Origin: an uncultured Burkholderiales bacterium
GTDB lineage: Bacteria > Pseudomonadota > Gammaproteobacteria > Burkholderiales > SHXO01
Length of the DNA stretch: 64,000 nucleotides
Direction of reading: 5' to 3'
Assembly (NCBI GenBank): GCA_964523885.1
Contig: CAZFYX010000039.1
Location: 169,427 to 233,426, forward strand
The position numbers were made by a program, and so were the translations under genes. The notes under the pieces were generated by a model, which saw only the letters and a list, made by a program, of their open reading frames with translations, was not told the origin of the DNA and did not search any database. This document shows positions 1,707 through 49,096 of this stretch, piece by piece (within the stretch, counting starts at the first letter, position 1; every line of letters begins with the position of its first letter).

Positions 1707-1712
1707 CACATC

Positions 1713-1805
1713 AGGCTCCAGGCCCTAGGCTCCAGACGCCAGGACCAAGGCGGGCGCGCAGCGTCCACGAAACCCCTGGCGTCTAGGGCCTAGAGCCTAG
1801 AGCCT
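1713..1805. repeat. REP-like palindrome with 7-bp periodic arms (family B, copy 1)
   Basis: Left arm aggctcc-aggccct-aggctcc-agacgcc-agg pairs imperfectly with right arm cctggcgtctagggcctagagcctagagcct. A related copy lies at 42116-42205. Confidence 0.8.
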
Positions 1806-16539: not shown

Positions 16540-17076
16540 CTAGCTCCTTGCCCGCCGCGCCCTGGGTTCCCGTCGCCGGGATGGCCGCGGCCTGCCTTGG
16601 GCGGGCTCCGGCAGCGGCAAGGCGGTCTGGTACTTGACCTGCTTGAGCGAGAAGCTCGACTTGATGTTGCCCACCCCGGGCACCCGCGAAAGGAACTGCA
16701 GGATGAACCGCTCCAGCGCCTGCAGGTCGGGCACCACCACGCGCAGCAGGTAATCCGCCTCGCCGGTCATGAGGTAGCACTCCATCACCTCGGGCCGCTC
16801 GCGGATCGCCTTCTCGAACACCTCCAGCGCCGGCTCGATCTGCTTCTCCAGCGTGACCTGGATGAACACGCTCACCTTCAGGCCCACGCGTTGCGGATCG
16901 AGCAGCGTCACGTAGCGGCTGATGTAGCCAGCCTCCTCCAGCGCCCGCACGCGGTTCAGGCACGGGGAGGGCGACAGCCCGACCTGCCCGGCCAGTTCGA
17001 CGTTGGTCATGCGCGCGTCGCGCTGGAGCAGGGCCAGCAGGCGCCAGTCAGTCAGGTCCAGCGTGTCGTTCGGCAT
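16540..17076 (-). CDS. Lrp/AsnC family transcriptional regulator (MdeR-like position)
   Basis: [31 protein letters not shown]; [13 protein letters not shown]; divergent from the E1 gene. Confidence 0.95.
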
Positions 17077-17241: not shown

Positions 17242-19959
17242 ATGACCGACCTCTCCGACATCCTCTCCAGCGGCCACTGGGCCGTGCTGCCTCCCGACCT
17301 CGACCCGGTCGAGACCCGCGAATGGCTCGACGCCCTCGCGGCCATTGTCGAGACCGAGGGGCCGGAGCGCGCGCAGTTCATCCTGCGCAAGCTGCTCGAT
17401 CAGGCCCGCTCGCTGCGCGTGCCGCTGCCGCCGGTGTTGAATACGCCCTACTGCAACACGATCCCACTGTCGGACCAGCCGCAGTACCCGGGCAACCTCG
17501 AGGTCGAGGCCCGCATCTCCGCGCTGGTGCGCTGGAACGCGCTCGCGATGGTGGTGCGCGCCAACAAGGTCGCCTCGGAGCTGGGCGGCCACATCGCGAC
17601 CTACGCGTCGGTGGCCGACCTGTTCGAGGTCGGCTACAACCACTTCTTCAAGGCCGGGCAGCACGGCGACCTGATCTTCTTCCAGCCGCACGCGGCCCCC
17701 GGCGTGTACGCCCGCGCGTTCATCGAAGGCCGGCTCACCGAGGAGCAGCTCGACCACTACCGCCGCGAGACCGGGGGCAAGGGCCTCTCGTCGTACTGCC
17801 ATCCGTGGCTTATGCCGGACTTCTGGCAGTTCCCCACCGGCTCGATGGGACTGGGCCCGATCACGGCGATCTACCAGGCCCGCTTCATGAAGTACCTGGA
17901 GAACCGCGGCATCCTGCAGGCCGGCTCGCGCAAGGTATGGGACTTCGTCGGCGACGGCGAGATGGACGAGCCGGAATCGATCGCCGGACTGTCACTCGCC
18001 GCCCGCGAGGGCCTGGACAACCTGATCCTGGTGGTGAACTGCAACCTGCAGCGCCTCGACGGACCGGTGCGCGGCAACGGCTCCGTCATCCAGGAGCTCG
18101 AGGGCCTCTACGCGGGTGCGGGCTGGAACGTGATCAAGCTGCTGTGGGGCTCGGACTGGGACCCGCTGTTCGCGCGCGACCACGAGAACATCATCCTGCG
18201 CCGCCTGCACGAGACCGTGGACGGGGAGTTCCAGAAGTATGCCGCCACCGACGGACGCTTCAACCGCGAGAACTTCTTCAACAAGTATCCCGAGCTGCAG
18301 AAGCTGGTCGCGCACCTGTCCGACGAGGACATCGACCGCCTGCGCCGCGGCGGCCACGACGCGGTGAAGATCTACGCGGCCTACCACGCCGCGGTGAACC
18401 ACAGGGGCCAGCCCACCGTCATCCTCGCGCAGACCAAGAAGGGCTATGGCATGGGCACCTGGGGCCAGGGCCGGATGACCGCGCACCAGCAGAAGAAGCT
18501 CGAGGACGACGCGCTGCTCGCGTTCCGCGACCGCTTCTCGATCCCGATCTCGGACGACGACGTCCACAACCTGCGCTTCTTCAAGCCGGCGGAGGACAGC
18601 CCCGAGCTCAAGTACGTGCACCAGCGCCGCCAGGCGCTCGGCGGGTACCTGCCGGTGCGCGCGCCGCGCGCGGAGACCCTGCCGGCACCGAAGGTCGAGA
18701 CGATGGCGAAGTACCTGGAAGGCACGCAGGGCCGCGAGCAGTCGACCACGATGATTTTCGTGCAGCTCCTGGCGCAGTGGCTCAAGGACGCCAGCATCGG
18801 CAAGCGCATCGTGCCGATCGTGGCCGACGAGGCCCGCACCTTCGGCATGCAGGCGCTGTTCCGCCAGGTCGCCATCTACTCGTCCGCCGGTCAGGTCTAC
18901 GAGCCCGAGGACAAGGACGAGCTGCTCTATTACAAGGAAGCACGCGATGGGCAGATCCTCGAGGAAGGCATCACCGAGGCCGGAGCCATCTCGTCGTGGA
19001 TCGCGGCGGCCACCAGCTACAGCGCGCACGGCGTGCCGATGCTGCCGTTCTACATCTTCTACTCCTGCTTCGGCTTCCAGCGCATCGGCGACCTGGTGTG
19101 GGCCGCGGCCGACTCACGCAGCCGCGGCTTCCTGCTCGGTGCCACCGCCGGCCGCACCACGCTGTCGGGCGAAGGCCTGCAGCACGAGGACGGCTCCAGC
19201 CACGTGCTGTTCTCCACCGTGCCCAACTGCGTGGCCTACGACCCCGCCTTCGGCTACGAGTTGACCGTCATCCTGCAGGACGGCATGCGCCGCATGCTGG
19301 AGGACCAGGAGGACGTGTTCTACTACGTCACGGTGATGAACGAGAACTACGTGCACCCGGCCATACCGGAGGGCGCGCGCGAGGGCATCATCCGCGGGAT
19401 GTACCGGCTCCAGCCCGGCAGTTCCCCCTCTCCCCTTGCGGGAGAGGGCCGGGGTGAGGGGTCAGCGCGCGTCCAGCTGCTCGGCTCGGGGACCATCCTG
19501 CGCGAGGTAATCGCGGCCGCGGAGCTGCTGCAGAACGACTGGAACGTCGCCGCTGATGTGTGGAGCGTCACCAGCTTCACGGAACTGCGCCGCGAGGGCA
19601 TCGAGGTGGACCGCTGGAACCGCCTGCACCCCGACATGCCGCCGCGCCAGACCTGGGTCGAGCGCTGCCTCGGCCCGGCACAGGGCCCGGTGGTCGCGGC
19701 GACGGACTACATGCGCATCGTGGGGGACATGATCCGCAACTGGGTCCCGCGCCGCTACATGGTGCTGGGTACCGACGGGTTCGGCCGCAGCGACACCCGC
19801 GCGGCACTGCGCAGCTTCTTCGAAGTCGACCGCCACCATGTCGTCATCGCGGCGCTGAAGGGCCTGGCGGACGACGGCAAGCTGGGACGCGAAGTGGTCA
19901 GGCAGGCGATCGAGCGCTACAGTGTGCAGACCGACACACCCAACCCCTGGGACTGCTGA
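17242..19959 (+). CDS. mdeB: homodimeric 2-oxoacid dehydrogenase E1 (AceE family, MdeB-like)
   Basis: DLDPVETREW, LGGHIATYAS, FPTGSMGLG, GDGEMDE and GRTTLSGEGLQH; divergent Lrp gene; no E2 or E3 nearby. Confidence 0.85.
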   Translation: MTDLSDILSSGHWAVLPPDLDPVETREWLDALAAIVETEGPERAQFILRKLLDQARSLRVPLPPVLNTPYCNTIPLSDQPQYPGNLEVEARISALVRWNALAMVVRANKVASELGGHIATYASVADLFEVGYNHFFKAGQHGDLIFFQPHAAPGVYARAFIEGRLTEEQLDHYRRETGGKGLSSYCHPWLMPDFWQFPTGSMGLGPITAIYQARFMKYLENRGILQAGSRKVWDFVGDGEMDEPESIAGLSLAAREGLDNLILVVNCNLQRLDGPVRGNGSVIQELEGLYAGAGWNVIKLLWGSDWDPLFARDHENIILRRLHETVDGEFQKYAATDGRFNRENFFNKYPELQKLVAHLSDEDIDRLRRGGHDAVKIYAAYHAAVNHRGQPTVILAQTKKGYGMGTWGQGRMTAHQQKKLEDDALLAFRDRFSIPISDDDVHNLRFFKPAEDSPELKYVHQRRQALGGYLPVRAPRAETLPAPKVETMAKYLEGTQGREQSTTMIFVQLLAQWLKDASIGKRIVPIVADEARTFGMQALFRQVAIYSSAGQVYEPEDKDELLYYKEARDGQILEEGITEAGAISSWIAAATSYSAHGVPMLPFYIFYSCFGFQRIGDLVWAAADSRSRGFLLGATAGRTTLSGEGLQHEDGSSHVLFSTVPNCVAYDPAFGYELTVILQDGMRRMLEDQEDVFYYVTVMNENYVHPAIPEGAREGIIRGMYRLQPGSSPSPLAGEGRGEGSARVQLLGSGTILREVIAAAELLQNDWNVAADVWSVTSFTELRREGIEVDRWNRLHPDMPPRQTWVERCLGPAQGPVVAATDYMRIVGDMIRNWVPRRYMVLGTDGFGRSDTRAALRSFFEVDRHHVVIAALKGLADDGKLGREVVRQAIERYSVQTDTPNPWDC
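19424..19461 (+). repeat. palindromic repeat (family A) inserted in frame in the E1 gene
   Basis: ccctctccc-cttgc-gggagagggccggggtgaggg matches intergenic 46771-46805 except for the 5-nt loop; translates as SPSPLAGEGRGEG. Confidence 0.88.
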
Positions 19960-32719: not shown

Positions 32720-33984
32720 GCGGTTTCCTTGCTGAAGAGGTCGCGGAACACCGGGTAGATGTCCTGCGGCCGGTTCACGCGCTTCATCGCGAAGTTGTCC
32801 TCCTCGCCCTCGAGCTCCTCGTACTCGGCCCACAGCGGGCTCTTGCGCGAGTACTCCTCCTCGGGCGTCTCGATGTAGGCGAAGTAGCGGGTGATCGGCA
32901 GCAGTTCCTCGCGCAGGAAGCGGGCACTCTTGCCCGCATCGGCGCCAAAGGCGTCGCCATCGGAGGCCTGCGCGGCGTAGATGTTCCAGTCTGCCGTCGG
33001 GTAGCGCGCAGCGGCCACGGTCTTCATCAGTTCCAGCGCCGAGAGCACCACCGTCCCGCCGCTGCGCTGGTCGTAGAAGAAGGTGTCCTCGTCGACCTCC
33101 TCGGCCTCGTCGGTGTGGCGGATGAACACCAGCTCGACCCGTTCGTACTTGCGCGTGAGGAACAGGTAGAGCAGCGTGAAGAAGCGCTTCGCGAGGTCCT
33201 TCTTGCGCTCGTCCATGGAGGCCGAGACGTCCATCAGGCAGAACATCACCGCCTGCGCCGTTGGCGCGGGCTGCACCACGCGATGGCGGTAGCGCAGGTC
33301 GACGTCGTCGAGGAACGGCAGGCGCCGCTTGCGCGCCTCGACGTCGACGATCTTCGCTTCGATTTCCGCGATCCGCGCCGCAGGGGCACCGTCACGCAGG
33401 GCGACCGCGAGCAGCGCCTTCAGTTCCTCGAGCTCGTCCCGCAGCGGCCCGCCGAGGGCAATCCGGCGCGCGAGCGCGGTCTTCATGGTCCGCGGCACGC
33501 TCAGGTTGCTCGGCGTGCCGTCCTTGACGTAGCCGGCGCGCACCAGCTTCTTGTGCTGCGCCTCGGCCAGCGTCGTGCGCATCAGGTTGGGCAGCTCGAG
33601 GTCCTCGAAGAAGATGTTCAGGAACTCGTCGCGCGAAAGCGTGAACACGAAGTCGTCGGTGGACTCGCCCGTACCCGGGTCGCGCCCGCCGCCGCCACCG
33701 GCGCCGCCATTGGGCCGCGGGATGCGGTCCCCGCGCACGAACTCCTTGTTGCCCGGGTGCACGCTCTCCCAGTCGCCGCCCTGCCCATAGCTGAAGCCGG
33801 GCTCGGAGATGTCCTTGGCCGGAACCTTGACCTCGCCGCCCTGGATCATGTCCTTGATCGAGCGGTCGGCGACCATGCCCTTGACCGCACGGCGCACGTG
33901 GTCCTTGTAGCGGCGGATGAACCGCTCGCGGTTGACGGCGCTCTTGTTGCGGCCGTTCAGGCGGCGATCGATGAGGTGCATCAT
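32716..33984 (-). CDS. yeaH: YeaH/YhbH family (UPF0229) protein
   Basis: IDRRLNGRNKS.VNRERF, FCLMDVSASM and SGGTVVLSAL. Confidence 0.95.
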   Translation of the reverse strand: MMHLIDRRLNGRNKSAVNRERFIRRYKDHVRRAVKGMVADRSIKDMIQGGEVKVPAKDISEPGFSYGQGGDWESVHPGNKEFVRGDRIPRPNGGAGGGGGRDPGTGESTDDFVFTLSRDEFLNIFFEDLELPNLMRTTLAEAQHKKLVRAGYVKDGTPSNLSVPRTMKTALARRIALGGPLRDELEELKALLAVALRDGAPAARIAEIEAKIVDVEARKRRLPFLDDVDLRYRHRVVQPAPTAQAVMFCLMDVSASMDERKKDLAKRFFTLLYLFLTRKYERVELVFIRHTDEAEEVDEDTFFYDQRSGGTVVLSALELMKTVAAARYPTADWNIYAAQASDGDAFGADAGKSARFLREELLPITRYFAYIETPEEEYSRKSPLWAEYEELEGEEDNFAMKRVNRPQDIYPVFRDLFSKETA

Positions 33985-34125
33985 GATTCAGGCGCCAGGT
34001 GCCAGACGCCGGCACGCAGCGAGGTGCGATGAAAAAACGGAGGAAAAGCGGACGACAGCAGGAGGGAACGGCAGGCACGGCGGCGGACGGGGCGAAGGGG
34101 GGGCGTGCCTCCCTCGCCGGTAAAA

Positions 34126-42108: not shown

Positions 42109-42115
42109 TCGTATC

Positions 42116-42205
42116 AGGCTCCAGGCTCTAGGCGCTAGACGCCAGAGGCTTTGCTGCAGCGCTGCGCGCAGCGCCCGACATCTGGCGTCTGGAGCCTGGG
42201 GCCTA
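42116..42205. repeat. REP-like palindrome with 7-bp periodic arms (family B, copy 2)
   Basis: aggctccaggctctaggcgctagacgccag ... ctggcgtctggagcctggggccta; shares the loop motif gcgcgcagcg with 1713-1805. Confidence 0.8.
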
Positions 42206-43186: not shown

Positions 43187-43209
43187 CGGTATTCCTCGTT
43201 GTTGTATTG

Positions 43210-43308
43210 ACCCATCCCCACCCTGTCCCGCCCCTTGAAGGGGAGGGAATGCGTCACACGCCGCGCAGCTCCTCCCCCTTCAAGGGGGAGGCTGGGAGGG
43301 GGATGGGT
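43210..43308. repeat. composite family A-like palindrome
   Basis: Outer inverted repeat acccatcccc/ggggatgggt with inner hairpins ccccttgaagggg and cccccttcaaggggg. Confidence 0.8.
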
Positions 43309-44614: not shown

Positions 44615-45120
44615 CCGCGCCCCGGCTCCCGCAGCGCGGCCTCGAACACGCATGCCGCGGCCCCCTGGCTGGCGCAGGCGAGCTCGCGCACGCTCGTCGC
44701 CGATCCGGCGACGACTTCGGCCAGTGCCTGGAGCATCCCCCGGATCGGACCACACACCGGCTCGCTCGACACACCGAACCCCATGGCGAACGGACTGTTT
44801 TCCACCTGCAGCTGCAAGGCCGTGGTCGACAGCTGCAGCTGCCAGCGGCCCCAGCCCAGGTCCGCGGCGGCATCCTGCATCGCATCGAGCAGGCGCACGC
44901 GATCCCCGCCGAGGTGGGCGAGATACGCCGTCACGCTGTCGCGGCCGTGCTGCGCCACCGAGCTGGCGAAGGCATCCTGCGCATGCCTGCGCAGCAACGG
45001 ATCCATGCGGCGCATGGCGCCCATCAGCACGTCGGCGCGCAACATGAGGTAACGCCGGGCCTCGTCGCGGATCTCTCCGCGCGCGCGGTCGAAGGCGAGG
45101 CGATCGGCGAGCCGCGTCAC
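44611..45120 (-). CDS. stand-alone V4R (vinyl-4-reductase) domain protein
   Basis: LGWG.W...ENSPFA...PVC..RGML..LA.V.......E..C...G...C.F pattern; overlaps both neighbours by 4 nt. Confidence 0.8.
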   Translation of the reverse strand: MTRLADRLAFDRARGEIRDEARRYLMLRADVLMGAMRRMDPLLRRHAQDAFASSVAQHGRDSVTAYLAHLGGDRVRLLDAMQDAAADLGWGRWQLQLSTTALQLQVENSPFAMGFGVSSEPVCGPIRGMLQALAEVVAGSATSVRELACASQGAAACVFEAALREPGRG

Positions 45121-46697
45121 ACCGTGCCCTGCGTACGGGGCAGCGGCAACGCCAGTGCCTGCATTGCCGCCGTCAACGCGCAGCCGTCCTCGTCCTGCAG
45201 CGCCGCCTCGCGCAGTCGGCGCAACGCCGGCGCGGCATCGGACGAGCCGCTCAGGCGATCGGCAGCGGCCATCAAGGCGTCGAAGCTGCGCCGTCCGCGC
45301 TCCCAGGTCTCGCTGTAACCCTTGAGCACGCGCGCCGACTCGGCCACCTCGCACGCGAGCGCATAGTCGATGCTGCCGATCCGCTCGATCCGCGCCAGCC
45401 AGGCGTCGATGTCGCGCATCTCGTCCGCATAGCGCAGCGTGCGGCGGCGGTAGCCGCGCAGCTGGCCCAGCGTCCACAGCAGCACGAACCCGGGAAGCGA
45501 CGTGGTGCGCAGGAAGCGCCCCCTGGCGAACAGGCCTCCGACCAGGTTGCGCGCCCAGGTGGTGGCGAGCAGCCAGCGGCCGAGCCCCGCCGGCAGGGTG
45601 TCGGCGAGCTCCCGCACGCGCGGGTGCAGGAAGTCGGTCACGTTGACGATCTGCCCCGGCTCCGCGCGGACCTCGCTGCGGAAGCGTTCGAAGCGGGTGC
45701 CGCGGGTCTTGAGGTCGGCGACCCGCAGCGTGTCCTCGTAAGCCATGCGCAATGCCAGGTAACGCGCGGTCACGACGGTCAACCGCCACTGCGCCCCGGC
45801 CATGCCCGCGCGCGCATCCATGGTTCGCACCGCATCCATGCGCCGCAGGTAGTCTGCCGCGTACTCGACGTCCATGTGATCGACCAGCCGACGCAGGCCC
45901 TCGATCAGGAGCGCCCGCGCCGGCTCGGGAAAGTCTGCATGGACGCGCTTCAGGAGTGCGGCGATGGCGGGATCGGCGGCCGCGACCGGAAGGGTCGGGG
46001 CCGCAGCGGGAGACTGCAGCGGGTCGCCGTCTTGCTGCGCGCGCTCGAACGCCCCGGCGAACGCCTTCAGGCTCGCCTCGACCCCGACGCCGCCGCGCCG
46101 GATCGCCGCCTCGAAGTCGGCACGCCGGAACGGCAGCACGCCCGCGCCGGCCAGGGCACCGAACAGCGCGGCCGAGATCACGCTGCCCGCGTCCTCTGCG
46201 AGGGCCGCCATGTCGAAGGCGATGTAGCGCTGCGCCACCTCCCGGGCAGCGGCATGCACGCGCTCTGGATCGGCGATGCCGCTGCCCATGGCCGATTTCT
46301 CGAGGATCGCGTACGAGCGATGCGACGATGCGATCAGGGTCGTTCGATCGGGCGTTACCAACCCGCGCTGCATCGCCCGGCCTGCTTCCATCAGTTCGGC
46401 AGCGATCACGACGTCCACATCACCGGAGGTCGGCATGAGCGCCAACACCGGCACGCGACCGTCCGCTGGCGATGGGAACAGCTCGGCGTAGTAGATGGTG
46501 GCGCCGGTGCGCTGGGCCACGCCGGGGACCGAGGTCGTCTGCACCAGCCAGCCGGCGTGCTCGGCGAGGTCGACGAGCCAGTCGGCGAGCACGCCGCCGC
46601 CCTGTCCGCCGAGGGCCAGGATGGCGATGGAGATGCGGCGCCTGGCGTCCTCGGCGTCGACGGGAGAGCGCTGCGGTGAGAGTGACGTGGCAGCCAT
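45117..46697 (-). CDS. iorB: indolepyruvate oxidoreductase beta-family protein (long form with DUF6537-like C-terminus)
   Basis: ILALGGQGGGVL, TSVPGVAQRTGATIYY and MAYED..RVADLK. Confidence 0.9.
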   Translation of the reverse strand: MAATSLSPQRSPVDAEDARRRISIAILALGGQGGGVLADWLVDLAEHAGWLVQTTSVPGVAQRTGATIYYAELFPSPADGRVPVLALMPTSGDVDVVIAAELMEAGRAMQRGLVTPDRTTLIASSHRSYAILEKSAMGSGIADPERVHAAAREVAQRYIAFDMAALAEDAGSVISAALFGALAGAGVLPFRRADFEAAIRRGGVGVEASLKAFAGAFERAQQDGDPLQSPAAAPTLPVAAADPAIAALLKRVHADFPEPARALLIEGLRRLVDHMDVEYAADYLRRMDAVRTMDARAGMAGAQWRLTVVTARYLALRMAYEDTLRVADLKTRGTRFERFRSEVRAEPGQIVNVTDFLHPRVRELADTLPAGLGRWLLATTWARNLVGGLFARGRFLRTTSLPGFVLLWTLGQLRGYRRRTLRYADEMRDIDAWLARIERIGSIDYALACEVAESARVLKGYSETWERGRRSFDALMAAADRLSGSSDAAPALRRLREAALQDEDGCALTAAMQALALPLPRTQGTV

Positions 46698-46705
46698 GCC
46701 GGCTT

Positions 46706-46806
46706 ACCCCTCGCCCTGCCCCTCTCCCGCGAGGGGAGAGTCGAACGATGCCGCGGTGTCGAGCAACTCTCCCTCTCCCTTGACGGGAGAGGGCCGGGGT
46801 GAGGGT
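46706..46806. repeat. composite family A palindrome between iorA and iorB
   Basis: cccctctcccgcgaggggagag and ccctctcccttgacgggagagggccggggtgagggt; outer ends are complementary. Confidence 0.85.
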
Positions 46807-46848: not shown

Positions 46849-48987
46849 TCAGAACGCATGCCGGCTCAACCGCCGCGCGGTGCGCGCCTGCAGCGCGCCG
46901 ATGATCCGCCCGCGCACCTTCTGCCAGAACCGCTCCCACGCACCCGGGTTGTAGACGACCTCGGCGCGCATGAACGAAGGGCACAGCGCGGCCGCATGTG
47001 CCGCCTCGCCGCACAGGCCGCAGCCCACGCAGCTGTCCTCGATGTGCGTCACCGGATCGAGCCGCAGCGGATCCGGATTGGGCTTGATGGTGAGCGAGGG
47101 GCAGCCCGACATGCGGATGCAGGCGTGATCGCCGGTGCAGGTATCGGGGTCGACCACGAAGCGCTCGCGCACCACCCGCTCGCCGGCCTTGATCGCCTGC
47201 CGCATCTGCGGCTTCACGCGGCGCTGCTTGTTCAGCATGCACTCCGACTGCGCCACGATCACCTTGTGGCCCGGCGCCTTGCCGCTCACCGCATCCTTCA
47301 GCGCCCGGCGCATCTGCGCGAGATCGTAGGTGCGCGTGATCGTGGCGACGGATTGCACGCCCACGCCGCGGACCGCCTGCTCGATGGGATGGTTGGTCGC
47401 CCGCGTCCGGTTCTCGGCCTTCGACGAGAGGAGGTCCTGCCCGCCCGTTGCCGCGGAGTACCCGTTGTCGACGATCAGCGTGACGCCTTCGCTGCGGTTG
47501 AACACCGAGTTGCCGATGCCGCTGGTCAGGCCGTTGTGCCAGAAGCCGCCGTCGCCCATCACCGCGATGGCCTTGCGCCCTGCGGGCACGTTGAAGGCCG
47601 AAGCGGCCGCGCCGCCCAACCCGTAACCCATCGTGGTGTTGCCGATGTTGAACGGCGGCAGGATGGAGAACAGGTGGCAGCCGATGTCCGCGCTGACGTG
47701 CATCGGCCCGACCTCCTTCTCGACCAGCTTCATCGCAGTGAAGATGGGCCGCTCCGGACAGCCGGTGCAGAACCCGGCCGGGCGCTGCGGCACCACGCCC
47801 GTCAGCGCCTGCACGGCCGGGTGCGAGGTGACCGGCACGCCGGCCTCGCCGGCAAGATGCCGCGCGTGCTCGCGCAGGAACTCGCGCACGCCGCGCACCA
47901 GCACGTCGCCGGTGTACTCGCCCGCCATGGGCAGCACGTCCTTTCCGGACAGCCTCGTCTGCACGTCCGCCTTGCGCAGGATGGTGTGGAGGGCCTGCTC
48001 GATGTAGTCGGGCTGCCCTTCCTCGATCAGCAGCACCGCGCGCTTGCCGGCGCAGAAGCGCACGACTTCGGCGTCCACCAGCGGATAGGTCACGTTGAGC
48101 ACGTACAGCGGAATGCGCGCGTTGCCGAAGGCATCCGCGAGGCCCAGCCGCTCGAGCGCGCGCAGCACGCCGTTGTACATGCCGCCCTGCAGGACGATGC
48201 CCAGCTCCTGCTCGGCACCGTCGAAGAACTCGTTGAGCCGGCGGTCCCGGATGAACTGCACGGCCGCGGGCCAACGCTTCTCGACCTTCTCCTTCTCGTG
48301 CTGGAACGAGGCCGGCGGCAGCACGATGCGTGCGGTGTCGCGGCGCGGGGTCTCCAGCGCCTGCTGCAGCGTGAACGCCGGCCGGCGGTTGTCCTTGGCG
48401 ACGAAGCGCCCGTGCACGTGACAGGCGCGGATGCGCAGCTCCAGCATCACCGGGGTGCTGCTCGCCTCGGACAGCTCGTAGCCCTGCTCCACCATCGCCA
48501 CGATGCTCTCGAGGTTGGGGCGCGGATCGAGCAGCCAGATCTGCGACTTCATCGCGAAGGCGTGGCTGCGCTCCTGCATGATGCTGGAGCCCTCGCCATA
48601 GTCCTCGCCGATGACGATCATCGCGCCGCCGGTCACGCCGCCCGAGGCGAGGTTGGCGAGCGCATCGGAAGCGACGTTGGTACCCACCGTCGACTTCCAG
48701 GTGGCGGCCCCGCGGATCGGATAGTTCACCGACGCGGCCAGCGTCGCGGCCGCCGTCGCCTCGGAGGCGGACGACTCGAAGTGCACGCCGAGCTCGCCCA
48801 GGATGTCCTGCGCGTCGGCGAGCACGTCCATCAGGTGCGAGATCGGCGCGCCCTGGTAGCCCGCGACATAGCCCACTCCGGCCTGCAGCAGCGCCTTGGT
48901 GACCGCGAGGATGCCCTCGCCATGGAACACCTCGCCCTGCTTCAGGCGCAGCTTCTCGACTTCCTTCGCGAAGGAACGTTCAGCCAT
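46849..48987 (-). CDS. iorA: indolepyruvate ferredoxin oxidoreductase alpha-family subunit
   Basis: GYQGAPIS, FCTGCPERP, DIGCH, GDGGFWHNG and C-terminal CTGDHAC..CP...CVGCGLC Fe-S motifs. Confidence 0.93.
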   Translation of the reverse strand: MAERSFAKEVEKLRLKQGEVFHGEGILAVTKALLQAGVGYVAGYQGAPISHLMDVLADAQDILGELGVHFESSASEATAAATLAASVNYPIRGAATWKSTVGTNVASDALANLASGGVTGGAMIVIGEDYGEGSSIMQERSHAFAMKSQIWLLDPRPNLESIVAMVEQGYELSEASSTPVMLELRIRACHVHGRFVAKDNRRPAFTLQQALETPRRDTARIVLPPASFQHEKEKVEKRWPAAVQFIRDRRLNEFFDGAEQELGIVLQGGMYNGVLRALERLGLADAFGNARIPLYVLNVTYPLVDAEVVRFCAGKRAVLLIEEGQPDYIEQALHTILRKADVQTRLSGKDVLPMAGEYTGDVLVRGVREFLREHARHLAGEAGVPVTSHPAVQALTGVVPQRPAGFCTGCPERPIFTAMKLVEKEVGPMHVSADIGCHLFSILPPFNIGNTTMGYGLGGAAASAFNVPAGRKAIAVMGDGGFWHNGLTSGIGNSVFNRSEGVTLIVDNGYSAATGGQDLLSSKAENRTRATNHPIEQAVRGVGVQSVATITRTYDLAQMRRALKDAVSGKAPGHKVIVAQSECMLNKQRRVKPQMRQAIKAGERVVRERFVVDPDTCTGDHACIRMSGCPSLTIKPNPDPLRLDPVTHIEDSCVGCGLCGEAAHAAALCPSFMRAEVVYNPGAWERFWQKVRGRIIGALQARTARRLSRHAF

Positions 48988-49010
48988 GGTCGGTTGTCGT
49001 GGCAGAGCCG

Positions 49011-49096
49011 GACCCATCCCCATCCCGCCCCTCCCCTTGCAGGGGCGGGAGTCCTTCCTTTCCCTTCACGGGGGGAGAAAGGAGGGGGATCGGTTC
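49011..49096. repeat. composite family A-like palindrome between cyclase and iorA
   Basis: gacccatccccatcccgcccctccccttgcaggggcggga...ggagggggatcggttc; shares its start with 43210. Confidence 0.72.

What the first reader, a model, noticed from the sequence alone, without database searches (positions are those of the whole stretch)
19424..19461. Intergenic-type palindromic element translated in frame inside the E1 enzyme
Seen: the segment equals the intergenic copy at 46771-46805 apart from a 5-nt loop and adds SPSPLAGEGRGEG just before VQLLGSG. Known: E. coli AceE has only a short linker there, and coding palindromic insertions are best known from Rickettsia RPEs. Inference: a repeat element created new peptide sequence in a tolerant surface loop of a central metabolic enzyme.
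Basis: partly seen in the sequence, partly recalled or inferred. Interest (0 to 1): 0.65.

Follow-up and report, generated by a model that had tools for sequence, protein, structure and literature searches.

The report
Triplex-motif repeat translated inside E1 enzyme
A 42-base copy of a common, normally intergenic GC-rich hairpin repeat (the BoxC/"TMECO" triplex motif known from E. coli) has recently landed in frame in a flexible loop of a pyruvate-dehydrogenase-like E1 enzyme, adding 14 amino acids, and the same repeat is also read as protein in at least five other genes of this bacterium.

Summary
Window 19420-19461 is an in-frame 42-nt element encoding SSPSPLAGEGRGEG (residues 727-740) in the 905-aa E1 gene at 17242-19959.

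- **Identity of the element:** it fits the published BoxC/PIT/TMECO intrastrand-triplex pattern exactly, as type B (Holder 2015, PMC4666352).
- **Copy number:** the genome has 89 strict and about 219 profile matches. A shuffled genome has none.
- **Age:** the in-gene 38-mer recurs exactly 15 times. The three closest orthologues compared (86-88% identical) lack it, so the insertion is recent.
- **Not an artefact:** contigs from an independent study carry both junctions.
- **Location in the protein:** it sits between the Pfam middle and C-terminal domains, in a loop that varies from 8 to over 40 residues among orthologues. AlphaFold2 models it as low-confidence coil.

- The gene is the AceE paralogue (TIGR03186), not the main AceE.
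- The case is not unique. IcmF, MetG, PatB, DnaE2 and the RibD tail also translate copies, giving at least 13 in all.
- Relatives carry other copies at the same E1, IcmF and MetG linkers.

In-frame palindromic repeats are already known (Rickettsia RPEs, intragenic REPs). TMECO, however, was reported as always intergenic in E. coli K-12. This scan noted a similar case before in a Patescibacteria peptidase (e1-1566024).

The parts
17242..19959 (+). Gene for a homodimeric-type 2-oxoacid dehydrogenase E1 component, the AceE paralogue (905 aa, P0001)
   Evidence: NCBIfam TIGR03186 scores 1459 bits (cut-off 1408.3) and TIGR00759 aceE 1427 bits. Pfam finds PDH_E1_M at 486-706 and Transketolase_C_1 at 739-863. 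GC3 is 0.94. dN/dS against the nearest orthologue is 0.14.
19420..19461 (+). In-frame 42-nt insert, 14 codons, SSPSPLAGEGRGEG, residues 727-740
   Evidence: Translation. The same 42 nt are shared with the IcmF copy. The insert is absent from orthologues L002, L003 and L004.
19418..19466 (+). Full extent of the repeat-family match (nhmmer profile of the genomic copies, 52.1 bits)
   Evidence: The family consensus includes the gcAGTT leader and the GGGGT(a) tail.
19426..19434 (+). C-rich arm CCCTCTCCC (stem 1)
   Evidence: Sequence. It pairs with 19440-19448, as a 9-bp hairpin in the RNA fold.
19435..19439 (+). Loop 1, CTTGC
   Evidence: This is the only internal difference from the intergenic copy, which has TTGAC.
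19440..19448 (+). G-rich arm GGGAGAGGG (stem 2)
19449..19451 (+). Loop 2, CCG, which defines TMECO type B
   Evidence: Type definition from PMC4666352.
19452..19460 (+). Third, Hoogsteen-type arm GGGTGAGGG (stem 3)
   Evidence: Read antiparallel to stem 2 it gives only G.G, A.A and T.A combinations, as in the published class II motif. This reading is made by eye.
46771..46805 (+).
   Evidence: It lies between genes 46849-49023 and 45117-46697, both on the minus strand.
46708..46728 (-). Diverged inverted partner copy (core with 3 mismatches). Together with 46771-46805 it forms an inverted pair.
16540..17076 (-). Divergent Lrp/AsnC-family regulator upstream of the E1 gene
   Evidence: Pfam AsnC_trans_reg and HTH_24.

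Best explanation
A copy of the genome's dominant BoxC/PIT/TMECO-type repeat was recently copied into the E1-paralogue gene. The repeat is a C-rich arm, a complementary G-rich arm and a second G-rich arm able to fold back as a purine-motif triplex in single-stranded DNA. It landed in the loop joining the middle domain to the first strand of the C-terminal domain. The inserted unit is 42 nt, so the frame is kept. The frame used has no stop and reads Ser/Pro/Gly/Glu/Arg. The gene therefore stays open and the protein gains a 14-residue flexible extension of a loop that already tolerates any length, so the effect is near neutral. Only such insertions escape purifying selection: length a multiple of three, stop-free hydrophilic frame, disordered linker. 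That filter explains why the coding copies sit in interdomain linkers and why two frames dominate. Shown here: element identity, copy number, absence from the closest orthologues compared, open frame, loop variability, the junctions in independent data, and parallel cases. Inferred: that the peptide is translated, that the enzyme stays active, and that the insertion is neutral. The copying mechanism is unknown.
For: - Exact fit to the published TMECO pattern, type B.
- 89 strict-pattern matches in the genome against 0 in a shuffled genome. 156 copies of the core with up to 3 mismatches. 219 profile hits. The in-gene 38-mer occurs exactly 15 times.
- The nearest orthologues have short unrelated linkers. 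L002 (88% identical) has RASAASAR against 20 residues here. On the tree, none of the seven other members of the 8-row clade carries a recognisable copy.
- dS to L002 is 0.55 while the copy is still identical to the commonest genomic sequence, so the insertion is much younger than the species split.
- The gene is intact: a full-length family match above cut-off and dN/dS of 0.14.
- The insert lies between Pfam domains (706 | 739).
- AlphaFold2 gives coil between strands 720-724 and 743-748, with pLDDT below 50 at 731-739 and above 90 in the neighbouring blocks 711-720 and 741-750.
- The loop is 11 residues shorter in E. coli E1p and ranges from 8 to over 40 residues among 69 relatives.
- Contigs from an independent study (X3-X5, about 97% identical flanks) run from the gene into the element (to 19447/19449) and from the element (from 19434/19435) on into the gene.
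- Parallel in-frame copies: IcmF residues 478-493 between the MeaB and mutase domains; MetG 578-594 between the anticodon and tRNA_bind domains; PatB, three copies; DnaE2, six; the RibD C-terminal tail.
- 5 of 6 frames of the element are open, and the coding copies use mainly two of them.
Against: - There is no direct evidence of translation or of enzyme activity with the insert.
- No single contig or read bridges the whole element with long flanks in independent data; only the two junctions are seen.
- No target-site duplication and no transposase were seen, and PF01797 (RAYT) was not found in this 98.7%-complete genome. The way the copy arrived is therefore unexplained.
- L004 shares GGTGAGGGG at the same position. 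This could be a remnant of an older insertion, which would weaken the 'recent' reading.
- Recurrence at the same loops could reflect targeting rather than selection alone.
Confidence: 0.85

Rival explanations
1. The coding copies are selected for a function rather than merely tolerated. At the protein level they could lengthen interdomain linkers. At the nucleic-acid level a stable hairpin or transient triplex at a domain boundary could pause transcription, translation or replication.
For: The repeats recur at the same linkers of E1, IcmF and MetG in several species of the genus. Two reading frames are used in nearly all coding copies. The copies lie at domain boundaries. PIT elements block DNA polymerase in vitro, according to PMC4666352.
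Against: The three closest E1 orthologues compared do without the insert. The inserted peptides decay quickly in relatives, for example L009 against L014. The same loop also accepts unrelated tandem repeats, as in L033 and L013. The hairpin is no more stable than shuffled sequence of the same composition (z = -0.13). Published tests found no promoter or terminator activity and no in vivo effect.
Confidence: 0.1
2. The insert is an assembly artefact of the metagenome-assembled genome, with a repeat wrongly threaded through the gene.
For: The genome is a 116-contig draft that appears to come from a bioreactor metagenome. Short-read graphs break at this repeat, and no contig spans it fully in other runs.
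Against: Both junctions occur in contigs from another study and from other samples. The insert is exactly 14 codons with no stop. Equivalent inserts occur at equivalent linkers in independently assembled genomes of the genus.
Confidence: 0.02
3. The E1 paralogue is dispensable or decaying, and the insertion marks relaxed constraint or inactivation rather than a tolerated change in a working enzyme.
For: It is a second E1 copy with no E2/E3 or mdeA next to it. dN/dS averages over a long history and cannot see very recent loss of function.
Against: The ORF is intact and the family match is full length and above cut-off. dN/dS is 0.14-0.23. Columns invariant across 31 homologues are kept. The paralogue is retained in most genomes of the genus. 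The same element sits in genes expected to be indispensable, such as MetG.
Confidence: 0.03

Closest known systems
BoxC / PIT element / TMECO G/C-rich intrastrand triplex motif of E. coli and other Proteobacteria (Holder et al. 2015, PMC4666352, which cites the earlier BoxC and Hoyne/Maher PIT papers)
   Same: The sequence pattern is the same: CCCTCNCCC, N3-6, GGGNGAGGG, N3, GGGNGAGGG. Loop 2 is CCG, as in type B, nearly identical to E. coli copy no. 1. Both are multi-copy, form inverted pairs of two subtypes, have no associated transposase, and are associated with locally variable DNA.
   Different: In E. coli K-12 all 23 copies are intergenic. Here at least 13 copies are read in frame inside genes. 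The copy number is also far higher: 89 strict matches against 23.
Rickettsia palindromic elements, RPE (Ogata et al. 2000 and 2002, as cited in PMC10969869 and PMC3733652)
   Same: Both are palindromic repeats inserted in frame in conserved, apparently functional genes. Both are absent from orthologues and also present between genes.
   Different: RPEs are about 100-150 bp and AT-rich. They are unrelated in sequence and found in an obligate intracellular parasite. This element is 42-48 nt and G/C-rich, has a third triplex arm, and occurs in a free-living Burkholderiales bacterium.
Intragenic GTAG- and CGTC-tagged REPs (Di Nocera et al. 2013, PMC3733652)
   Same: Short REPs lie inside ORFs of known proteins in several species, often as dimers or clusters encoding 20-80 residues, and often in DNA synthesis and repair genes. 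The DnaE2 case here fits that pattern.
   Different: The consensus here has no consistent GTAG or CGTC tag. No RAYT was found. The three-arm architecture differs.
Enterobacterial small mobile sequences and ERIC or MITE ORF fusions (Delihas 2007 and 2011, PMC3184786)
   Same: Repeat-encoded reading frames are fused to chromosomal ORFs, internally or at the 3' end. The RibD tail here is of the 3' type.
   Different: Those elements are longer (100-170 bp), with terminal inverted repeats and target duplications. Neither feature was seen here.

Membership tests
BoxC/PIT/TMECO intrastrand triplex motif | Sequence pattern CCCTCNCCC N3-6 GGGNGAGGG N3 GGGNGAGGG | tested here: met
   19426-19460 reads CCCTCTCCC-CTTGC-GGGAGAGGG-CCG-GGGTGAGGG. 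The pattern is taken from PMC4666352.
BoxC/PIT/TMECO intrastrand triplex motif | Type defined by loop 2 (TTA = type A, CCG = type B) | tested here: met
   Loop 2 is CCG, so type B. CCG is also the commonest loop 2 in this genome, 36 of 89.
BoxC/PIT/TMECO intrastrand triplex motif | Many copies, far above chance | tested here: met
   89 strict matches against 0 in a shuffled genome. In the window, 3 against 0.01 expected.
BoxC/PIT/TMECO intrastrand triplex motif | Inverted pairs made of two different subtypes | tested here: met
   Oppositely oriented pairs of a TTGC-loop and a TCGAC/TTGAC-loop subtype occur, for example at C39:105667/105733 and C39:120890/120938, and in the window at 46708/46785.
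BoxC/PIT/TMECO intrastrand triplex motif | Intergenic location (all 23 copies in E. coli K-12) | tested here: not met
   This copy and at least 12 others lie in frame inside genes. This is a property reported for one strain, not part of the sequence definition.
BoxC/PIT/TMECO intrastrand triplex motif | The single strand folds into a stable purine-motif triplex in vitro | not testable with these tools
   Only the 9-bp hairpin can be folded in silico. Triplet compatibility was read by eye.
Rickettsia palindromic elements (RPE) | Element of about 100-150 bp belonging to the RPE sequence families | tested here: not met
   The element is 42-48 nt. RPE size is from PMC3184786 and PMC10969869. Sequence likeness to RPEs was not compared.
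Rickettsia palindromic elements (RPE) | In-frame insertion in conserved genes, absent from orthologues | tested here: met
REP/REPIN mobilised by a RAYT transposase | A RAYT (IS200/IS605-type Y1 transposase, PF01797) gene in the genome | tested here: not met
   No PF01797 match in the 98.7%-complete genome. The control genomes gave matches.
REP/REPIN mobilised by a RAYT transposase | GTAG (or CGTC) tetranucleotide tag at one end | tested here: inconclusive
   The consensus tail is GGGGTa followed by variable bases. Only some copies read GTAG, and the in-gene copy does not.
Homodimeric 2-oxoacid dehydrogenase E1, AceE paralogue (TIGR03186) | Full-length HMM match above the curated cut-off | tested here: met
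   1459 bits against a cut-off of 1408.3, residues 18-904 on profile positions 4-888 of 889.
Homodimeric 2-oxoacid dehydrogenase E1, AceE paralogue (TIGR03186) | Substrate other than pyruvate, and genomic link to mdeA | tested here: not met
   No mdeA or E2/E3 gene was found among the neighbours scanned; only a divergent Lrp-type regulator. Substrate cannot be tested here.

The most novel reading that the evidence does not exclude
In this Burkholderiales genus the BoxC/TMECO triplex repeats behave as Rickettsia RPEs do. They repeatedly colonise the same permissive linkers of conserved enzymes (E1 paralogue, IcmF, MetG, PatB, DnaE2). They do so in two preferred reading frames that give Ser/Pro/Gly/Glu peptides, and so are a systematic source of new linker sequence. 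The recurrence at the same sites would then reflect targeting to particular DNA structures or replication-stall sites, not only selection after random insertion. The heavy load in the error-prone polymerase gene dnaE2 would be linked to how the repeats spread.
Probability: 0.2. Interest if true: 0.7.

Novelty: new member of a known kind. Interest (0 to 1): 0.5.

Why it matters
BoxC/PIT/TMECO motifs have been described as strictly intergenic, functionless-looking repeats linked to local genome instability. This genome shows they can be read as protein in a 2-oxoacid dehydrogenase, a tRNA synthetase, a B12 mutase, a PLP lyase and an error-prone DNA polymerase. That extends the Rickettsia-type "coding palindrome" phenomenon to a free-living, GC-rich betaproteobacterial genus and to a different repeat family. 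It also gives a natural map of loops in these enzymes that accept insertions. For annotation, odd SPSPLAGEGRGEG-like segments in proteins of such genomes are repeat-derived, not homology signals. The finding also offers a tractable system for two questions: whether triplex-forming DNA inside genes affects replication or transcription, and how these repeats move.

Tried and rejected
- **RAYT mobilisation:** PF01797 was not found in the genome, so a REPIN/RAYT explanation is unsupported.
- **Hairpin stability:** the fold (-27.5 kcal/mol) is no better than shuffles of the same composition (z = -0.13), so it is not used as evidence.
- **First coding screen:** the GC3/ORF screen found 3 of 156 copies and undercounted. 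Copies lying next to other copies (DnaE2, PatB) failed the flank test. They were recovered after masking and by domain continuity. The census is still a lower bound.
- **First alignment:** picking the longest ORF chose wrong frames in this high-GC DNA. It was replaced by motif-anchored extraction.
- **Read laying:** one search gave no contig spanning the whole element. It also gave no joint that precisely skips 19420-19461, so neither full bridging nor an empty-site allele is shown. The other 'skips' listed come from low-identity records and were ignored.
- **L004 remnant:** the shared GGTGAGGGG at the same position is left undecided.
- **Target-site duplications:** none were seen by eye at the E1 and IcmF copies.
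- **Own-genome notes:** the notes on this genome found with 'palindromic repeat' did not bear on this element.
- **Literature:** a search for TMECO, BoxC and PIT terms found no report of coding copies in the library held.
Full report
**1. The observation**

The sequence is as described. Window 19424-19461 reads CCCCCTCTCCCC-TTGC-GGGAGAGGG-CCG-GGGTGAGGGG. The copy at 46771-46805 has the same arms and differs only in the 5-nt first loop, TTGAC against CTTGC. The 21-nt core GGGAGAGGGCCGGGGTGAGGG occurs three times in the window with up to 3 mismatches, against 0.01 expected from shuffles.

The element lies inside ORF 17242-19959 (+) and is read as ...GMYRLQPG-SSPSPLAGEGRGEG-SAR-VQLLGSG.... Counted by codons, the repeat-derived part is 19420-19461, 14 codons, residues 727-740. 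The 46771 copy is intergenic. It lies between two minus-strand genes, a ThDP enzyme at 46849-49023 and a POR/DUF6537 protein at 45117-46697, beside a diverged inverted partner at about 46708-46728.

**2. The gene**

P0001 (905 aa) matches two NCBIfam models over its full length: TIGR03186 at 1459 bits (cut-off 1408.3) and TIGR00759 aceE at 1427 bits. TIGR03186 is an 'exception' model for a paralogue of homodimeric PDH E1, named alpha-ketoglutarate dehydrogenase in the library. From memory, its founding member is P. putida MdeB, which acts on 2-oxobutyrate.

The genomes of this genus usually hold two E1 genes. One is this type, 72-88% identical. The other is the canonical AceE, about 60-64% identical. 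In this genome the canonical copy is split over contig ends C88 and C32, and its loop (RGAKPEAKGAR) has no repeat.

So "central metabolic enzyme AceE" should read "AceE paralogue". Its only linked neighbour is a divergent Lrp/AsnC regulator; no E2/E3 or mdeA is adjacent. The gene looks functional. The frame is open, GC3 is 0.94, dN/dS is 0.14-0.23 against four orthologues, and it keeps the columns that are invariant in 31 homologues.

**3. The element**

The window's genome is 5.06 Mb in 116 contigs with 68.6% G+C, and appears to be a bioreactor metagenome bin of a Burkholderiales bacterium.

| Count in the genome | Number |
|---|---|
| Exact copies of the 21-nt core | 44 |
| Core with up to 3 mismatches | 156 |
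| Profile (nhmmer) hits built from those copies | 219 |
| Strict TMECO pattern matches | 89 |
| Strict pattern matches in a shuffled genome | 0 |
| Exact copies of the in-gene 38-mer | 15 |

A lead from earlier notes of this scan pointed to the BoxC/PIT/"TMECO" intrastrand triplex motif. I checked it in Holder et al. 2015 (PMC4666352).

- The published pattern is CCCTCNCCC, N3-6, GGGNGAGGG, N3, GGGNGAGGG.
- Type B is defined by CCG in the second loop.
- E. coli copy no. 1 reads CCCTCTCCC-TGT-GGGAGAGGG-CCG-GGGTGAGGG.

The in-gene copy fits this exactly and is type B. CCG is the commonest second loop in this genome, 36 of 89. As in E. coli, two subtypes occur as inverted pairs. No RAYT transposase (PF01797) was found, which agrees with the paper's statement that the motif is not tied to known mobile elements. 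The paper also states that in E. coli K-12 the motif "is always located intergenically" and is associated with locally unstable DNA.

**4. Is it an insertion, and when?**

Among orthologues the stretch between GMYRL and VQLLGSG differs as follows.

| Orthologue | Identity to this E1 | Linker | Length |
|---|---|---|---|
| L002 | 88% | RASAASAR | 8 aa |
| L003 | 87% | GESAPARVAGAGKAPAR | 17 aa |
| L004 | 86% | RSATRDGEGGLR | 12 aa |
| this genome | - | QPG + 14-aa insert + SAR | 20 aa |

On a tree built without the loop columns, this gene sits in a well-supported 8-member clade. None of the other seven members carries a recognisable copy.

Synonymous divergence from L002 is 0.55. Yet the in-gene copy is still identical to the commonest genomic version. 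The insertion is therefore far younger than the species split.

One caveat: L004 shares GGTGAGGGG at the equivalent position. This could be chance or a remnant of an older insertion.

**5. Is it real DNA?**

Public runs from another study (X3-X5) hold a strain with about 97% identical flanks. Its contigs run from the gene into the element (19100 to 19447/19449) and from the element on into the gene (19434/19435 to 19752). A second sample of the source study gives 19213-19447 without any difference.

Contigs break inside the repeat, as expected for short-read graphs, so no record bridges it fully. No joint that precisely removes the 42 nt was seen.

**6. Where in the protein?**

- Pfam places the insert between PDH_E1_M (486-706) and Transketolase_C_1 (739-863).
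- Against E. coli E1p (1L8A and related entries) the loop is 11 residues longer. The E. coli sequence there is KLETIEGSKGKVQLLGSG.
- An AlphaFold2 model from 31 homologues (mean pLDDT 76.8) gives coil between strands 720-724 and 743-748. pLDDT is below 50 at 731-739 and above 90 in the neighbouring blocks 711-720 and 741-750.
- Across 69 relatives the loop ranges from 8 to over 40 residues. It also contains unrelated tandem repeats in some, such as (DAKRS)n in L033 and a GGGAGG-type run in L013.

It is a permissive, probably disordered loop.

**7. The case is not unique**

A screen of all copies found the following in-frame coding copies. It looked for read-through frames with coding-type GC3 on both sides, and was later repeated with the repeats masked and checked by domain continuity.

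| Gene | Position of the copy or copies | Peptide or note |
|---|---|---|
| IcmF-type fused mutase (P0002) | residues 478-493, between MeaB and the mutase domain | GSSPSPLAGEGRGEGG; same 42 nt, same frame as E1 |
| MetG (P0003) | residues 578-594, between the anticodon domain and tRNA_bind | opposite strand, PSPQASPARGEGE |
| PatB-family C-S lyase | three tandem copies splitting the family match | - |
| Error-prone polymerase DnaE2 | six copies; 1365 aa against a 1047-position profile | includes three 56-residue tandem units, each with GSPSPLAGEGRGEGEK |
| RibD | last 13 residues | SFPSPLAGEGQGEG followed directly by the stop codon |

That makes at least 13 of about 219 copies. This is a lower bound.

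Five of the six frames of the element are open. The coding copies use almost only two of them, both giving Ser/Pro then Gly/Glu/Arg.

**8. Recurrence in relatives**

- **E1.** A separate clade (L014, L009) carries a different subfamily of the motif at the same loop: CCCTCCCCC-TGCA-GGGGGAGGG-CAA-GGGTGGGGG. This subfamily has 16 copies in that genome. The copy is decayed in L009. That makes at least two independent insertions at one loop.
- **IcmF.** The baseline linker is about 10 residues. G002, G014, G017 and G021 have long repeat-like inserts there, such as SSPLPQGEGKGEGG. The profile confirms the G002 one at the DNA level.
- **MetG.** Recognisable copies lie in the same linker in at least eight species.

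The family is genus-wide with very uneven copy number, from 1 to about 130 per genome at up to 2 mismatches.

**9. How it most likely works**

Shown:
- A multi-copy triplex-motif repeat was copied into a linker of the gene, in frame and without a stop.
- The gene remains intact.
- The loop tolerates any length.

Inferred:
- The 14 residues are translated as a flexible extension.
- The change is near neutral.
- The pattern of coding copies (length a multiple of three, two hydrophilic frames, interdomain linkers) is what purifying selection leaves from many insertions.

According to PMC4666352, purine-motif triplexes do not form in RNA. At the mRNA level only a 9-bp hairpin is therefore expected, and it is no more stable than composition predicts. 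The copying mechanism remains unknown.

Rivals are a selected function, an assembly artefact, and a decaying gene. I rate them at about 0.10, 0.02 and 0.03, for the reasons given under each.

**10. Comparison and novelty**

In-frame palindromic repeats are known:
- Rickettsia RPEs.
- Intragenic GTAG/CGTC REPs in several phyla, often in replication and repair genes.
- Enterobacterial ORF fusions.

The element family is also known. What I did not find in the library held is this family inside coding sequence; the one detailed study reports it as always intergenic in E. coli K-12. I therefore class the finding as a new member of a known kind.

This scan noted a similar case before on other DNA: note e1-1566024, GC-rich hairpin repeats in frame in an M24 peptidase of a Patescibacteria bacterium. 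I did not re-test that case.

**Verdict**

Interest is moderate (0.5). The case is clean and well documented, and broader than reported, but the principle is established.

Noticed in passing
G000:C109:97017-101123 (= L172:5018-9112, minus strand): The error-prone DNA polymerase DnaE2 (NF004225, 1446 bits) is 1365 aa against a 1047-position profile. It carries six in-frame copies of the triplex-motif repeat, including three tandem 56-residue units each with GSPSPLAGEGRGEGEK between the HHH and OB domains. ImuA lies upstream.
   Followed up: partly
G000:C109:95650-97008 (= L172:3651-5003, minus strand): A PatB-family C-S lyase (TIGR04350, 405.6 bits) has three tandem in-frame repeat copies at residues of about 143-215. 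They split the family match into two stretches in the middle of a PLP-enzyme fold.
   Followed up: partly
G000:C4:28780-32142 (L111, P0002) and G000:C8:11196-13346 (L112, P0003): IcmF-type fused mutase and MetG each carry one in-frame copy in an interdomain linker. Relatives in the genus carry other or decayed copies at the same linkers. The IcmF gene is also flanked by three intergenic copies.
   Followed up: yes
G000:C25:62994-64376 (L171): The last 13 residues of RibD (SFPSPLAGEGQGEG) are encoded by a repeat copy in the same frame as in E1, and the stop codon follows directly.
   Followed up: partly
L033 and L013, E1 loop: The same E1 loop holds unrelated simple repeats in other genomes. 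One Burkholderiales MAG has a (DAKRS)-type pentapeptide tandem repeat giving a loop of over 40 residues. Another has a GGGAGG-type run.
   Followed up: no
L017 and L019 against L014 and L009: On the E1 tree the two genomes with the second repeat subfamily are not sisters; L017 and L019 lie between them and lack it. This implies loss twice, or transfer or recombination of the loop.
   Followed up: no
window 43209-43255 and 49011-49057: Two copies of another G/C-rich hairpin family (a CCC(G/T)CCCCTTG(A/C)AGGGG(A/C)GGG-type core) are 81% alike. It is related in style to the family studied but distinct from it.
   Followed up: no
window 1710-1763, 33980-34033, 42113-42166: A third repeat family with heptamer-periodic arms (repeat finder family D6).
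   Followed up: no
G000:C88:2-2092 and G000:C32:69289-69897: The canonical AceE of this genome is split across two contig ends, so the main PDH E1 gene is incompletely assembled.
   Followed up: no
whole genome G000: No IS200/IS605-type Y1 transposase (PF01797, RAYT) was detected despite more than 200 REP-like copies. Copy number of the family in congeners ranges from 1 to about 130 per genome.
   Followed up: partly
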